Origin: a virus
Lineage: Duplodnaviria > Heunggongvirae > Uroviricota > Caudoviricetes
Virus record (IMG/VR): IMGVR_UViG_2711768075_000012
Location: 1 to 21,846 of that record
Length of the DNA: 21,846 nt
Reading direction: 5' to 3' (one strand)
The position numbers and the translations under genes were made by a program. The stretch's first letter is position 1. The number at the start of each line of letters is the position of its first letter. The notes below the pieces were generated by a model. It saw nothing but the letters and a program-made list of their open reading frames with translations. It did not search any database and had not been told where the DNA came from. This document shows positions 12,768 to 14,231 of the stretch, in pieces.

Positions 12768-12995
12768 ATGTTAACCAGAAGGGAAAAAGACATGCTAAAA
12801 CAGCAAGATATGACAGAAACCGCCGCCGCAGTCCTTCATTTCTTACCTGCTGACAAGTGGGTAACGCCACGCATGATGACGAGAACTACCGGAGTAAGCG
12901 AAGCCCGGTGCCAGTTAATACTGACTCAGTTAGTTCTGGCGGGGCTGGCGAAGGATAACGGCGGGTACGGGAATAAATTCAGACGCTGCCGGTAA
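12768..12995 (+). CDS. hypothetical small protein (67-75 aa), possibly a wHTH DNA-binding protein
   Basis: ORF with protein-like composition. A better RBS (AGGGA) precedes the internal ATG at 12792, so the start is uncertain. No diagnostic motif. Confidence 0.4.
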   Translation: MLTRREKDMLKQQDMTETAAAVLHFLPADKWVTPRMMTRTTGVSEARCQLILTQLVLAGLAKDNGGYGNKFRRCR

Positions 12996-13145
12996 TGGCG
13001 GTTTCCTGCTGTGAAAATGGGCGGCTGGTGGGTGTTGGTAGCACCTGCCAGCCATTCGCTCATGCTTACTGGTCACAAGCGAACCACGGCCCACTGCTTT
13101 AGCGCAAAAGCAGAGTGAGCCTACCAGAGTTACGCTTACTGATCC

Positions 13146-14198
13146 ATGAAAAATACTGTAAAAATAAACAGTGTTGATTTAATCAACGCTGATTGCCTGC
13201 ATTTTATTCAGTCCCTGCCTGATGATTCCATTGACCTGATTGTTACCGATCCGCCGTACTTCAAGGTGAAACCCAACGGTTGGGACAATCAGTGGAAAGG
13301 GGACGAAGATTACCTTAAGTGGCTGGACCACTGTCTGGCCCAGTTCTGGCGGGTGTTAAAACCTGCCGGAAGCCTTTATCTGTTCTGTGGGCATCGCCTG
13401 GCATCTGATATTGAGATCATGATGCGTGAACGTTTCAACGTGCTTAACCATATCATCTGGGCGAAGCCGTCCGGACGTTGGAATGGGTGTAATAAAGAAA
13501 GTCTGCGCGCATATTTTCCTGCCACAGAGCGCGTTCTGTTTGCTGAACATTACCAGGGGCCATATCGCGGCAAAAGTGACGGCTATGCAGCAAAAGAAAG
13601 GGAACTCAAACAGCACATAATGGCACCGCTGATATCGTATTTCAGGGATGCTCGTGCCGAACTGGGTATAACGGCAAAACAAATTGCCGAAGCCACAGGT
13701 AAGAAAAATATGGTTTCCCACTGGTTTGGTGCCAGTCAGTGGCAGTTGCCGAATGAGGCTGACTATCGGAAGTTACAGGCACTGTTTTCCCGTATAGCGG
13801 CAGAGAAGTTTCAGGAACAACAACTGGAACAACCACACCACCAGCTGGTGGCATCTTATGATTCACTGAATCGCAAATATTCTGAATTGCTGGATGAGTT
13901 TAAATCTCTCCGGCGCTATTTCTCCGTATCAGTCTCCGTGCCTTATACCGATGTCTGGACGCATAAGCCCGTTCAGTTCTACCCGGGTAAACATCCGTGC
14001 GAGAAACCGGCGGATATGCTCCGGCAAATAATCAATGCCAGTAGTCGCCCTGGTGATCTGGTTGCTGATTTCTTTATGGGATCCGGTTCCACAATAAAAG
14101 CAGCAATGGCGCTGGGGCGTCGGGCGTTAGGTGTTGAACTTGAGTCAGAGCGGTTTAATCAGACGGTGAAAGAGGTAAGTGAACTGGTGGGGAAATAA
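13146..14198 (+). CDS. beta-class DNA methyltransferase (N6-adenine or N4-cytosine; N6_N4_Mtase-like), 350 aa
   Basis: Motif IV DPPY (IVTDPPYF) near the N-terminus and motif I FxGxG (FFMGSGST) near the C-terminus, the beta-class order. No adjacent restriction endonuclease gene. Confidence 0.7.
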   Translation: MKNTVKINSVDLINADCLHFIQSLPDDSIDLIVTDPPYFKVKPNGWDNQWKGDEDYLKWLDHCLAQFWRVLKPAGSLYLFCGHRLASDIEIMMRERFNVLNHIIWAKPSGRWNGCNKESLRAYFPATERVLFAEHYQGPYRGKSDGYAAKERELKQHIMAPLISYFRDARAELGITAKQIAEATGKKNMVSHWFGASQWQLPNEADYRKLQALFSRIAAEKFQEQQLEQPHHQLVASYDSLNRKYSELLDEFKSLRRYFSVSVSVPYTDVWTHKPVQFYPGKHPCEKPADMLRQIINASSRPGDLVADFFMGSGSTIKAAMALGRRALGVELESERFNQTVKEVSELVGK

Positions 14199-14204
14199 TT
14201 CTGG

Positions 14205-14231
14205 TGGCCACGTTGCGTGGCCTTTTTATTT
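14205..14231 (+). terminator. rho-independent terminator between the methyltransferase and holin genes
   Basis: ggccacg-ttg-cgtggcc followed by tttttattt. Candidate tR'-type terminator upstream of the lysis cassette. Confidence 0.6.

What the first reader, a model, noticed from the sequence alone, without database searches (positions are those of the whole stretch)
12768..14231. Small wHTH-like protein plus orphan beta-class methyltransferase inserted between the moron and the holin
A 350-aa MTase with DPPY-then-FxGxG motif order sits between two terminators with a small upstream ORF and no cognate endonuclease. With the Dam-like MTase at 8245-8898 the prophage carries two solitary methyltransferases, consistent with anti-restriction self-protection. 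Its placement next to the WYL-like moron raises the possibility of a functional unit (modification plus sensor/effector) rather than independent cargo.
Basis: inference. Interest (0 to 1): 0.4.

Follow-up and report, generated by a model that had tools for sequence, protein, structure and literature searches.

The report
Prophage late-gene promiscuous adenine methyltransferase
This is a member of the already characterised M.EcoGII family, enzymes that methylate adenines in any sequence context and that lambda-like prophages keep silent until lytic growth; it sits behind a small winged-helix gene and a conserved folded RNA leader, and it is not tied to the neighbouring WYL gene.

Summary
A 67/75-aa winged-helix ORF (12792/12768-12995) and a 350-aa beta-class MTase (13146-14198; DPPY before FxGxG) lie between two intrinsic terminators. 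They sit downstream of antiterminator Q and upstream of the holin, with no nuclease partner.

The MTase is about 81% identical over its full length to M.EcoGII, the characterised non-specific adenine MTase of E. coli prophages. It is 100% identical to a GenBank phage protein and 99% to SfV orf48. Relatives at 65% and 53% identity are also experimentally non-specific.

- The wH+MTase module occurs in at least 1100 of 5426 complete E. coli genomes.
- The moron occurs in 52 genomes and is contiguous with the module in 24.
- Elsewhere the same moron and Q type precede a wH gene plus an AraC-family regulator instead.

Two parts are under-described. The wH gene lies directly upstream of the MTase in 59 of 76 species-level loci, but either gene can occur without the other. 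A 143-nt leader always abuts the MTase start codon, shows significant base-pair covariation, lacks a Shine-Dalgarno sequence and has no Rfam match. It is a candidate translational gate for a toxic enzyme.

Overall this is a known kind of gene in its usual place, with modest interest.

The parts
11451..11822 (+). Context: antiterminator Q gene (PF06530). It is inferred to be what lets RNA polymerase read through the terminators flanking the module.
   Evidence: Pfam E 6.5e-48. RefSeq annotates the E189 homologue as 'antiterminator Q family protein' at the equivalent position.
11898..12515 (+). Context, not part of the module: a 205-aa moron with an N-terminal WYL-fold domain and an unmatched C-terminal domain. 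It recurs behind the same type of Q gene, with or without the MTase downstream.
   Evidence: WYL matches are sub-threshold in Pfam and PADLOC. In the AlphaFold model (pLDDT 74), the N-terminal ~70 aa superpose on the WYL domains of CapW, BrxR and DriD (rmsd 1.1-2.0 A, E 2e-4 to 1e-3).
12645..12672 (+). Intrinsic terminator t1 (tR'-like): AAACCCGC / GCGGGTTT followed by a T-run. It marks the upstream border of the conserved module.
   Evidence: Sequence. Fold -13.8 kcal/mol, z -2.1. Inverted repeat I6. The homologous site is annotated as a terminator in SfV. Homology with SfV, cdtI and mEp460 starts at 12597-12646.
12792..12995 (+). Gene for a 67-aa single-domain winged-helix protein (an alternative upstream ATG at 12768 gives 75 aa). 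Helix 3 (RCQLILTQLxxAGL) is invariant.
   Evidence: PHROG 331, E 3e-26. 89 homologues, some carrying PF17782 DprA_WH or named 'TrmB family'. The alignment shows a conserved start at the second Met. AlphaFold pLDDT 87 with H1-H2-H3-beta-beta topology. Foldseek hits are winged-helix domains of TrmBL2, Zalpha, IclR, Rrf2 and MarR.
12985..13005 (+). Small hairpin overlapping the wH stop codon. In other alleles (1720a-02, phiP27, S88) it is a clear hairpin plus T-run terminator; here the T-run is degenerate.
   Evidence: Alignment and RNAalifold, columns 6-25 of A3, with compensatory changes. S88 and L011 sequences.
13006..13145 (+). Conserved structured 5' leader of the MTase mRNA.
- Helices: P1 13018-22/13089-93; P2 13023-34/13042-53; P3 13055-64/13074-83; P4 13094-100/13107-13.
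- Alternative pairings: extended P4 13087-94/13115-22, and a possible start-site-sequestering helix 13071-81/13133-44.
- No Shine-Dalgarno sequence precedes the ATG.
   Evidence: The nucleotide sequence is more conserved than the flanking genes.
- Covariance model R1 gives 61 hits, and those with an MTase start fixed by an independent protein match or annotation, including N15, end at that start codon. It gives none in wH-only loci.
- Covariation is 20 double-change pairs against 7.9+-1.6 in shuffles (0/500), with slid controls at 5-8.
- On the unfitted MAFFT alignment it is 13 against 6.3+-1.3 (0/500).
- Alternative helix.
- Single-sequence fold z -3.4.
- No Rfam match at E<=10.
13146..14198 (+). 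Gene for a 350-aa beta-class N6-adenine DNA methyltransferase, a member of the M.EcoGI/M.EcoGII non-specific adenine MTase family. DPPY is encoded at nt 13248-13259 and FMGSG at nt 14073-14087.
   Evidence: PF01555, E 1.3e-42. PADLOC MTase_II, E 1.6e-152. 80.6% identical to M.EcoGII, 88% to Anc291 and 70% to SUPREM. 100% identical to the phage vB_EcoM-720R4 protein and 99.1% to SfV orf48.
14206..14232 (+). Intrinsic terminator t2 (GGCCACG ttg CGTGGCC + TTTTTATTT) between the MTase and the holin.
   Evidence: Terminator scan. Fold -12.5 kcal/mol, z -2.35. The homologous site is annotated as a terminator in SfV and Ayreon.
14275..14610 (+). Context: lambda-family holin S, the first gene of the lysis cassette. 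Together with Q upstream, it places the module within the Q-to-lysis (late) region.
   Evidence: PF05106, E 5.9e-27. RefSeq annotation in E189. Start codon read from the sequence.

Best explanation
The segment 12645-14232 is a standard cargo module in the Q-to-lysis (late) region of a lambdoid E. coli prophage. Its order is terminator t1, a 67-aa winged-helix gene, a 143-nt structured leader, an M.EcoGI/GII-family adenine methyltransferase and terminator t2.

**What the enzyme does (inferred from homology to four experimentally characterised relatives).** It transfers methyl groups to the N6 of adenines with little or no sequence specificity.

**How it is controlled (inferred from the anatomy, and from published silence of M.EcoGI/GII and M.EcoMV in lysogens).**
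1. In the lysogen, late-promoter transcripts stop at t1, so the toxic enzyme is not made.
2. After induction, Q-modified RNA polymerase reads through t1 and t2.
3. The MTase is then made together with the lysis genes.
4. It methylates replicated phage DNA before packaging.
5. Progeny DNA is thereby broadly protected from restriction systems that m6A blocks in the next host.

The structured, Shine-Dalgarno-less leader probably limits or times translation. That the structure exists is shown; that it has this role is inferred.

The winged-helix gene is a frequent but separable upstream companion. The WYL-like moron is unrelated cargo that recurs behind the same type of Q gene.
For: **Identity**
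- The MTase matches PF01555 with the beta-class motif order.
- It is 80.6% identical over its full length to M.EcoGII. The M.EcoGII sequence came from an OCR-derived supplement of PMC11551740, so this is a lower bound.
- It is 88% identical to Anc291 and 70% to SUPREM, which are both reported as non-site-specific.
- It is 64.5% identical to Serratia OS31 p25 and 52.7% to Aeromonas ARM81ld p56, both reported experimentally as non-specific (PMC7556043). That paper explicitly predicts the phiP27 and 'many Escherichia phage' homologues to be non-specific.

**Silence and toxicity**
- M.EcoGI and M.EcoGII are not expressed in the lysogen, and constitutive clones are sick (PMC5778455).
- The EC958 homologue M.EcoMV was judged inactive under the conditions tested, from RT-PCR (PMC4659465).

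**Position**
- The order Q - (variable cargo) - t1 - wH - leader - MTase - t2 - holin, or tRNA + stx, recurs in SfV, cdtI, mEp460, 1720a-02, phiP27, yong2, PSTRCR_117lys, phiNP and Salmonella prophages.
- The N15 record annotates promoter - terminator - MTase - terminator - holin, and the leader model matches the stretch just upstream of the N15 MTase.
- The terminators are supported.
- No nuclease gene is adjacent.

**Leader**
- Covariation and exclusive linkage to the MTase.

**Independence from the moron**
-.
Against: - There are no methylome or expression data for this allele.
- 19% of residues, including 18 of 78 in the predicted target-recognition domain, differ from M.EcoGII. Some residual sequence preference therefore cannot be excluded.
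- The late promoter and the Q-binding site were not located. The consensus scan found no convincing promoter upstream of t1.
- Both terminators are predictions.
- Murray et al. report that heavily M.EcoGII-methylated plasmid DNA transforms E. coli 4-5 orders of magnitude worse. Very dense methylation may therefore be costly, and the in vivo level on phage DNA is unknown.
- The regulatory role of the leader is inferred from structure alone.
Confidence: 0.8

Rival explanations
1. One reading: the WYL-like moron and the MTase form one functional unit (modification plus sensor/effector), so that the MTase is needed to tolerate the moron.
For: They are adjacent on the same strand in this window and in 24 complete E. 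coli genomes. The moron does have a genuine WYL-fold sensor-type domain.
Against: - The module is in 1100-1501 genomes and the moron in 52. At least 11 sequenced phages have the module without the moron.
- About half of the moron-bearing genomes lack the adjacent MTase (51 against 24).
- S88 and UTAK-6 have the same moron and a Q gene of the same type, followed by wH + an AraC regulator + tRNAs.
- Terminator t1 separates the two.
- The slot between Q and t1 holds unrelated genes in cdtI, mEp460_4F5 and Salmonella prophages.
Confidence: 0.03
2. The winged-helix protein and the structured leader together form a dedicated controller of the MTase. This would be analogous to Com/mom of phage Mu or to C proteins of restriction-modification systems. 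In this reading the wH protein binds the leader RNA (or the DNA box AAATGGGCGGCTGG) and so sets when and how much MTase is made.
For: - wH lies directly upstream of the MTase in 59 of 76 species-level loci, from Escherichia to Xenorhabdus and Proteus, at a fixed spacing of either ~82-105 or ~141-157 nt.
- Its helix 3 is invariant while the rest of the protein diverges to ~45% identity.
- The leader has no Shine-Dalgarno sequence, and a partly covarying helix can sequester the region just upstream of the ATG.
- In the Aeromonas relative phiARM81ld, a Com-type zinc-ribbon translational regulator (PF10122, 27.9 bits) occupies the same position and overlaps the MTase start.
- The enzyme is toxic, so tight control is plausible.
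Against: - The two genes are separable. The MTase and leader occur without wH in Eeyore, LLS, N15 and 17 of 76 genome loci.
- wH occurs without the MTase in S88, UTAK-6 and an O157-like contig.
- Two wH alleles only ~52% identical sit on identical leaders (SfV against the window), so there is no allele-specific co-evolution.
- M.EcoGII is active when cloned alone.
- wH has no zinc ribbon and is not an Xre-type HTH.
- The fold search gives only generic winged-helix hits.
Confidence: 0.25
3. The winged-helix ORF is an independent small gene (a separate moron with its own terminator) that merely shares the recombination-prone slot between Q and the lysis genes with the MTase.
For: - In several alleles it has its own terminator-like hairpin right after the stop codon.
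- It precedes unrelated cargo, either an AraC regulator or an 87-aa ORF plus a SASA esterase, in other prophages.
- Mosaic junctions fall at its 3' end, near 13010 and at the Chi site inside P2.
Against: The 78% adjacency across families, at MTase identities down to 61%, is higher than expected for unrelated cargo in a mosaic region.
Confidence: 0.4
4. The enzyme is a sequence-specific orphan MTase that is active in the lysogen and acts as an epigenetic regulator of host or prophage genes (Dam/CcrM-like), rather than a late, non-specific anti-restriction enzyme.
For: It shares the beta-class fold with CcrM. 18 of 78 predicted TRD residues differ from M.EcoGII.
Against: - All four characterised relatives, at 53-81% identity, are non-specific.
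- Close homologues are silent in lysogens.
- The gene lies behind a terminator between Q and the lysis genes.
- Methylomes of strains carrying homologues show no extra motif (PMC6602927).
Confidence: 0.06

Closest known systems
M.EcoGII / M.EcoGI (E. coli O104:H4 C227-11 prophage MTases; Murray et al. 2018, PMC5778455)
   Same: - Length is 349-350 aa, with the beta-class order DPPY - TRD - FxGxG and about 81% identity over the whole length.
- Both are encoded on lambdoid prophages, have no endonuclease partner and are silent in lysogens by published report.
- Closer M.EcoGII-type alleles (E. albertii, phage 1720a-02; at least 92-94% identical to M.EcoGII) sit in the same wH - leader - MTase arrangement.
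   Different: About 19% of residues differ, including 18 of 78 in the predicted TRD. The activity of this allele has never been measured. The published work does not describe the upstream wH gene or the leader.
PhiOS31_p25 (Serratia phage OS31) and ARM81ld_p56 (Aeromonas phiARM81ld), experimentally relaxed or non-specific adenine MTases (PMC7556043)
   Same: They belong to the same protein family (64.5% and 52.7% identity). ARM81ld_p56 lies immediately upstream of the holin, and the OS31 paper describes the lysis cassette directly after its MTase gene.
   Different: phiARM81ld has a Com-type zinc-ribbon gene overlapping the MTase start, in place of a wH gene and a 143-nt leader. It is a linear plasmid-prophage rather than an integrated lambdoid.
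com-mom of phage Mu (a late, toxic adenine-modifying enzyme whose translation needs a small upstream-encoded RNA-binding protein; from established knowledge)
   Same: It works alike in outline. Both have a small upstream ORF, a structured mRNA leader around a weak translation start, a toxic DNA-adenine-modifying enzyme expressed only late, and an anti-restriction role.
   Different: There is no homology. The wH protein is not a zinc ribbon, Mom is not a SAM MTase, and RNA binding by wH is untested. wH and the MTase are separable.
Controller (C) proteins of type II restriction-modification systems (from established knowledge)
   Same: A small DNA-binding protein is encoded just upstream of a modification or restriction gene.
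   Different: C proteins are Xre-type HTH dimers acting on C-box operators upstream of their own gene, and they control the endonuclease. Here the fold is winged helix, there is no endonuclease, and the inverted repeats found by a window-only search map to the terminators and leader helices rather than to an operator-like site upstream of the wH gene.
stx / tRNA / nanS-p / AraC-regulator cargo slot between Q and the lysis genes in lambdoid phages
   Same: The chromosomal slot is the same: between Q with its downstream terminator and the holin. In phiP27 and 1720a-02 the wH-MTase pair lies directly upstream of the stx genes.
   Different: The cargo here is an anti-restriction enzyme rather than a toxin or a host-directed regulator.

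Membership tests
Beta-class N6/N4 amino-DNA methyltransferases (Pfam PF01555) | Profile match above the curated threshold | tested here: met
   146.6 bits against a cut-off of 26.7, E 1.3e-42, covering aa 29-341.
Beta-class N6/N4 amino-DNA methyltransferases (Pfam PF01555) | Motif order: catalytic (D/N)PP(Y/F) N-terminal, SAM-binding FxGxG C-terminal, TRD between them | tested here: met
   DPPY at aa 35 and FMGSG at aa 310. PDB matches to M.RsrI, M.MboIIA, CcrM and DpnA split into N- and C-terminal stretches around a central insert.
M.EcoGI/M.EcoGII clade of non-specific adenine MTases | Close full-length sequence relationship to a characterised member | tested here: met
   80.6% identical to M.EcoGII, 88% to Anc291 and 70% to SUPREM, all over the full length. 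64.5% to OS31 p25 and 52.7% to ARM81ld p56.
M.EcoGI/M.EcoGII clade of non-specific adenine MTases | Methylates adenine in any sequence context (DNA, ssDNA, RNA) | not testable with these tools
   This needs restriction-protection assays, LC-MS or SMRT/ONT sequencing on DNA from cells expressing this allele. It is inferred only from relatives.
M.EcoGI/M.EcoGII clade of non-specific adenine MTases | Prophage-encoded, solitary and transcriptionally silent in the lysogen | tested here: inconclusive
   Prophage location and the absence of a nuclease partner were shown. Silence is only inferred from terminator t1 and from published data on homologues.
Type II restriction-modification system | Cognate restriction endonuclease gene adjacent to the MTase | tested here: not met
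   The neighbours are the wH protein, the holin, the endolysin, Rz, the WYL protein and Q. None has a nuclease domain in the Pfam or PADLOC searches run on them. The same holds in all related phages inspected.
Winged-helix (wHTH) DNA-binding proteins, for the 67-aa ORF | H1-(S1)-H2-H3-S2-wing-S3 topology | tested here: met
   AlphaFold pLDDT 87, with H4-17, H26-33, H37-49, E53-55 and E63-65. The best structural matches are all winged-helix domains, with TM 0.75-0.84. No Pfam family reaches threshold (MarR_2 E 0.045), so no specific family is assigned.
Com-type translational activators (PF10122 Zn_ribbon_Com) | Cys4 zinc ribbon | tested here: not met
   No PF10122 hit for the window protein, whereas phiARM81ld p55 scores 27.9 bits in the same scan. 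The model is all winged helix, and only one Cys is invariant.
R-M controller (C) proteins | Xre-type HTH and palindromic C-box operators upstream of its own gene | tested here: not met
   The fold is winged helix, not Xre. The inverted repeats found by a window-only search between 12560 and 13160 map to terminator t1 and the leader helices, or are imperfect (79-89% complementary) repeats with widely spaced arms reaching the wH start; none was tested for conservation.
Known Rfam RNA families (for the 143-nt leader, including SAM/SAH riboswitches) | Covariance-model match | tested here: not met
   No hit in 13000-13148 at gathering thresholds or at E<=10.
WYL-domain proteins (for the neighbouring moron) | Sm/SH3-like WYL beta-barrel | tested here: inconclusive
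   The sequence match is below threshold (Pfam 16.3 bits against 21.8; PADLOC E 1.4e-3). The predicted N-terminal domain does superpose on CapW, BrxR and DriD WYL domains (rmsd 1.1-2.0 A, E 2e-4), but the model has only pLDDT 74 and comes from a 5-sequence alignment.
Phage N-6-adenine-methyltransferase (TIGR01712 / PF05869), for the second MTase at 8245-8898 | Equivalog profile above the cut-off | tested here: met
   255.6 bits against a cut-off of 97.05. PF05869, E 1.1e-45.

The most novel reading that the evidence does not exclude
The 143-nt leader that abuts the start codon of M.EcoGII-family MTase genes in the loci examined would be a previously undescribed cis-regulatory RNA. It would gate translation of a toxic, promiscuous methyltransferase by switching between mutually exclusive helices: P3 against a helix that sequesters the start region, and P1 against extended P4. 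The invariant helix 3 of the upstream winged-helix protein would recognise this RNA, or its AAATGGGCGGCTGG box. That would make wH + leader a non-homologous functional analogue of Mu Com/mom.
Probability: 0.2. Interest if true: 0.55.

Novelty: new member of a known kind. Interest (0 to 1): 0.25.

Why it matters
In itself, little: this is another copy of a very common prophage gene, present in roughly a fifth or more of complete E. coli genomes. Its family has been biochemically characterised and is sold as a reagent.

The analysis has two uses. First, it removes a speculative modification-plus-sensor link. Second, it shows that these enzymes come with a conserved, covarying, Shine-Dalgarno-less mRNA leader and usually with a tiny winged-helix gene, neither of which is mentioned in the papers consulted here.

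If the leader, with or without the wH protein, proves to be the device that keeps a methylate-everything enzyme harmless until late lytic growth, it would explain how prophages can carry such a toxic gene so widely. It could also offer a compact control element for the many chromatin-footprinting tools built on M.EcoGII.

Tried and rejected
1. **A protein-coding reading of the leader.** The window has a 33-codon ORF starting at ATG 13017. It was rejected because relatives carry 1-nt indels and most have a stop after 7 codons.
2. **Homology between leader hairpin P2 and a similar hairpin inside the MTase gene (13344-13371).** The local alignment score of 20 is no better than shuffles at 18+-2. 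This is coincidence.
3. **Rfam.** There was no match for the leader at gathering thresholds or at E<=10. Around t1 there were only weak sub-threshold hits to STnc130 and isrK/isrJ.
4. **The wH protein as a DpnI-like m6A reader, or as a Z-DNA binder.** Foldseek gives generic winged-helix hits. Zalpha has the best TM-score (0.82-0.84) at only 15-16% identity, and no DpnI or HhiV4I hit appeared. This was not pursued.
5. **Locating the late promoter and Q-binding site.** The consensus scan found nothing convincing upstream of t1, and comparison with the 1720a-02 intergenic region was ambiguous. This remains unresolved.
6. **The Chi site (13024) as the reason for P2 conservation.** Proteus relatives keep the hairpin through compensatory changes while losing Chi, so the structure is what is conserved.
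7. **Literature searches.** Searches for induction-dependent hypermethylation and for SfV orf47/orf48 gave nothing specific.
8. **Technical failures.** RNAalifold on the 40-sequence MAFFT alignment mis-registered the P2 loop, so the structure was drawn by hand and checked with a covariance model.
9. **The S88 235-aa protein as a decayed MTase.** It shows no similarity to the MTase and is AraC-family.
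Full report
**What is there**

The window is a lambdoid E. coli prophage. Over 11840-14262 its best match is the chromosome of strain E189, at 99.6%. The region under study reads as follows:

| Coordinates | Feature | Evidence |
|---|---|---|
| 10438-11433 | DUF968/HNH-like gene | |
| 11451-11822 | antiterminator Q (PF06530) | |
| 11898-12515 | 205-aa WYL-like moron | |
| 12645-12672 | intrinsic terminator t1 | |
| 12768/12792-12995 | small ORF | |
| 12996-13145 | ~150-nt spacer | |
| 13146-14198 | 350-aa MTase ORF | |
| 14206-14232 | intrinsic terminator t2 | |
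| 14275-15545 | holin, endolysin and Rz | |

The MTase matches PF01555 (E 1.3e-42). DPPY is at aa 35 and FMGSG at aa 310, which is the beta-class order. No nuclease gene is adjacent. The second orphan MTase at 8245-8898 is a TIGR01712/PF05869 phage Dam-type enzyme.

The only correction concerns the small ORF. Its homologues begin at the second Met (MLKQQDMT...), so the gene most likely starts at 12792 (67 aa), as RefSeq annotates in E189.

**What the MTase is**

The enzyme belongs to the M.EcoGI/M.EcoGII family. The M.EcoGII sequence (GenBank EGT69837.1) was recovered from Supplementary Table S1 of PMC11551740. That copy is OCR-noisy, so the identities below are lower bounds.

| Compared with | Identity |
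|---|---|
| M.EcoGII, full length | 80.6% |
| Anc291 (reconstructed ancestor) | 88% |
| SUPREM (reconstructed ancestor) | 70% |
| Serratia phage OS31 p25 | 64.5% |
| Aeromonas phiARM81ld p56 | 52.7% |
| phage vB_EcoM-720R4 protein | 100% |
| SfV orf48, cdtI and Ayreon proteins | 99.1% |

Published work bears on function as follows:
- M.EcoGII methylates adenine in any context in dsDNA, ssDNA and RNA. It sits on a prophage, is silent in the lysogen and is harmful when expressed constitutively (PMC5778455).
- Anc291 and SUPREM were also reported to be non-site-specific.
- OS31 p25 and phiARM81ld p56 were shown experimentally to have relaxed or no specificity. The authors predicted the same for phiP27 and 'many Escherichia phages' (PMC7556043).
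- The EC958 homologue M.EcoMV was judged inactive under the conditions tested, from RT-PCR (PMC4659465). STEC strains carrying homologues show no extra methylation motif (PMC6602927).

Non-specific adenine methylation is therefore a well-supported inference for this allele, although it has not been measured.

**Where it sits and how it is probably controlled**

The block 12646-14262 is conserved as a unit in many phages, always between Q and either the lysis genes or the tRNA + stx genes:
- SfV, where both flanking terminators are annotated.
- cdtI, mEp460 and Ayreon.
- 1720a-02 and phiP27, where it lies upstream of stx2.
- Hafnia yong2, Providencia PSTRCR_117lys, Citrobacter phiNP and Salmonella prophages.

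The N15 record annotates promoter - terminator - MTase - terminator - holin. The arrangement, together with the published silence of homologues, gives the following inferred mechanism:
1. In the lysogen, late transcripts stop at t1.
2. After induction, Q-modified polymerase reads through t1 and t2.
3. The enzyme is made along with the lysis proteins.
4. It methylates phage DNA before packaging and so protects it from restriction that m6A blocks.

I could not locate the late promoter or the Q-binding site.

**The moron hypothesis**

Distribution data reject this.

In 5426 complete E. coli genomes:
- The wH+MTase block matches in 1501 genomes, 1100 of them at 80% coverage or more.
- The moron matches in 52 genomes.
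- The two are contiguous in only 24 genomes.

Other observations point the same way:
- The slot between Q and t1 is empty in SfV and 1720a-02. It holds unrelated, even reverse-strand, genes in cdtI, mEp460_4F5 and Salmonella prophages.
- In S88 and UTAK-6 the same moron, behind a Q gene of the same size and annotation (the S88 Q protein accession is identical to that of E189), is followed by a wH homologue. After that come an AraC-family regulator and tRNAs, with no MTase.

The moron thus recurs behind the same type of Q gene whether or not the MTase follows.

The moron itself does have a WYL-fold N-terminal domain. It superposes on CapW, BrxR and DriD at rmsd 1.1-2.0 A, but the model is only moderately confident. 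It also has an unmatched C-terminal domain. Its function remains unknown.

**The small ORF**

It is a real gene:
- PHROG 331 matches at E 3e-26.
- There are 89 database homologues, some carrying PF17782 (DprA winged helix) or named 'TrmB family'.
- Helix 3 (RCQLILTQLxxAGL) is invariant while the rest of the protein diverges to ~45% identity.
- The AlphaFold model (pLDDT 87) has H1-H2-H3-beta-beta topology.
- The closest solved structures are winged-helix domains of TrmBL2, Zalpha, IclR, Rrf2 and MarR proteins.

'wHTH-like' is therefore supported at the fold level, but no specific family is met.

Its link to the MTase is strong but not obligate:
- In 80 species-level loci from GTDB genomes (MTase identity 61-93%; Enterobacteriaceae, Erwiniaceae, Morganellaceae), 76 have enough upstream sequence to judge.
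- In 59 of those 76, wH is immediately upstream, at a spacer of ~82-105 or ~141-157 nt.
- The MTase occurs without wH in 17 of these loci and in phages Eeyore, LLS and N15.
- wH occurs without the MTase in S88, UTAK-6 and an O157-like contig with the order Q - wH - 87-aa ORF - SASA esterase - holin.
- SfV combines a wH allele only ~52% identical with a leader identical from 13011 and a 98% identical MTase. The junction is near 13010.

**The leader**

This was unexpected. The spacer between wH and the MTase is more conserved at the nucleotide level than either gene.

*Distribution.* A covariance model built on a hand-drawn four-helix structure (R1) found 61 matches in 543 kb of related loci. 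Where the MTase start had been fixed independently by a protein match or an annotation, the matches ended at that start codon. One of them was in N15, at 44.8 bits. There were no matches in wH-only loci.

*Covariation on the model-fitted alignment.*
- 20 of 32 pairs show changes on both sides, against 7.9+-1.6 in shuffles (0 of 500 reach the observed value).
- Controls with the partners slid by 1-3 columns give 5-8 such pairs.

*Covariation on the unfitted MAFFT alignment.*
- 13 pairs show double changes, against 6.3+-1.3 in shuffles (0 of 500).
- One P3 pair alone shows CG:17, UA:8, AU:7 and UG:3.

*Other features.*
- Frequent G-U pairs would be expected for an RNA of the sense strand rather than for a DNA structure.
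- P1 and an extended P4 are mutually exclusive, and both are supported.
- A further helix could pair the 3' half of P3 with the 12 nt just upstream of the ATG. It is 87% paired across sequences, against 21-43% in slid controls, and shows some compensatory changes. It also appears in the minimum-free-energy fold, which has z -3.4.
- No Shine-Dalgarno sequence precedes the ATG.
- Nothing in Rfam 15 matches.
- The leader is not a conserved ORF.
- Its conservation is not explained by the Chi site inside P2, because Proteus relatives keep the hairpin but lose Chi.

I read the leader as a structured 5' UTR that probably restrains or times translation of a toxic enzyme. That the structure exists is shown; that it has this role is inferred.

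One further observation makes post-transcriptional control of this enzyme family more plausible. In the Aeromonas relative phiARM81ld, a Com-type zinc-ribbon gene (PF10122, above threshold) overlaps the MTase start. This keeps open a Com/mom-like role for wH + leader. The separability of wH from the MTase, and the lack of allele-specific co-evolution, argue against an obligate partnership.

**Comparison and verdict**

The MTase is a new, uncharacterised allele of a well-known family, in that family's usual genomic slot. The anti-restriction reading is the accepted one. The moron link is not supported.

The wH companion and the covarying leader are the only parts not described in the papers I could read. 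They justify a modest residual interest.

Noticed in passing
window 13006-13145: The spacer between the wH gene and the MTase is a conserved, covarying, Shine-Dalgarno-less structured leader with no Rfam match. It is linked to the MTase start in 61 related loci, including phage N15.
   Followed up: yes
window, whole; Chi (GCTGGTGG) at 5073, 5419, 8268, 9520, 10669, 10940, 12703, 13024, 13844, 14324, 14828, 16998, 17466, 18117 on + and 5 sites on -: There are 14 Chi octamers on the + strand and 5 on the - strand in 21.8 kb. That is far above the ~0.3 per strand expected from length alone, and it is strongly oriented. One Chi lies in leader hairpin P2, and a mosaic junction in contig L011 falls right after it.
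   Followed up: partly
window 5741-5817 and 5842-5929 (+): Rfam hits above gathering score to isrK (59.3 bits) and to C4 antisense RNA (82.3 bits) lie side by side. This suggests a P1/P7-type c4-ant immunity/antirepressor module in this lambdoid prophage.
   Followed up: no
window 13344-13371 (+), inside the MTase gene: A strong hairpin (-22.4 kcal/mol, z -3.7) flagged as terminator-like lies within the coding sequence. It resembles leader hairpin P2 by eye, but the similarity is no better than shuffles.
   Followed up: partly
window 11898-12515; L009 (S88) 3559-4176; L098 (UTAK-6) 3059-3676: The 205-aa moron has a WYL-fold N-terminal domain without the usual HTH, plus an unmatched C-terminal domain. 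It has very few homologues (9 clusters). In the three genomes inspected (E189, S88, UTAK-6) it sits behind a 123-aa gene annotated 'antiterminator Q family protein', with identical Q protein accessions in S88 and E189.
   Followed up: partly
L009 (E. coli S88) 4455-5772; L098 (UTAK-6) 3955-5280: In these prophages the slot occupied here by the MTase holds an AraC-family regulator (PF00165/PF12833) followed by three tRNA genes. It is still preceded by a wH homologue and a remnant of hairpin P2.
   Followed up: partly
L099 (Aeromonas phage phiARM81ld) 1862-2077: A Com-type zinc-ribbon 'translational regulator' gene overlaps the start of the homologous non-specific MTase, which is followed by a holin. 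It is a non-homologous small gene in the position that wH occupies here.
   Followed up: partly
L012 (Salmonella prophage) about 3248-3277 and 3868-4029: The t1 terminator sequence appears on both sides of a 139-aa moron inserted between Q and the wH gene. This is what would be expected if cargo was inserted at the terminator.
   Followed up: no
window 12593-12773: There are weak, sub-threshold Rfam hits around t1: STnc130 on the - strand (30 bits against 55) and isrK/isrJ-like hits on the + strand. They may reflect a short late-promoter-to-terminator RNA.
   Followed up: no
L063-L095 (Xenorhabdus and Photorhabdus loci), about 100 nt upstream of the MTase: In these genera the wH-MTase spacer is shorter. 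The P2-equivalent hairpin is followed by a U-run, so it looks like an intrinsic terminator or attenuator rather than the Enterobacteriaceae-type leader.
   Followed up: no
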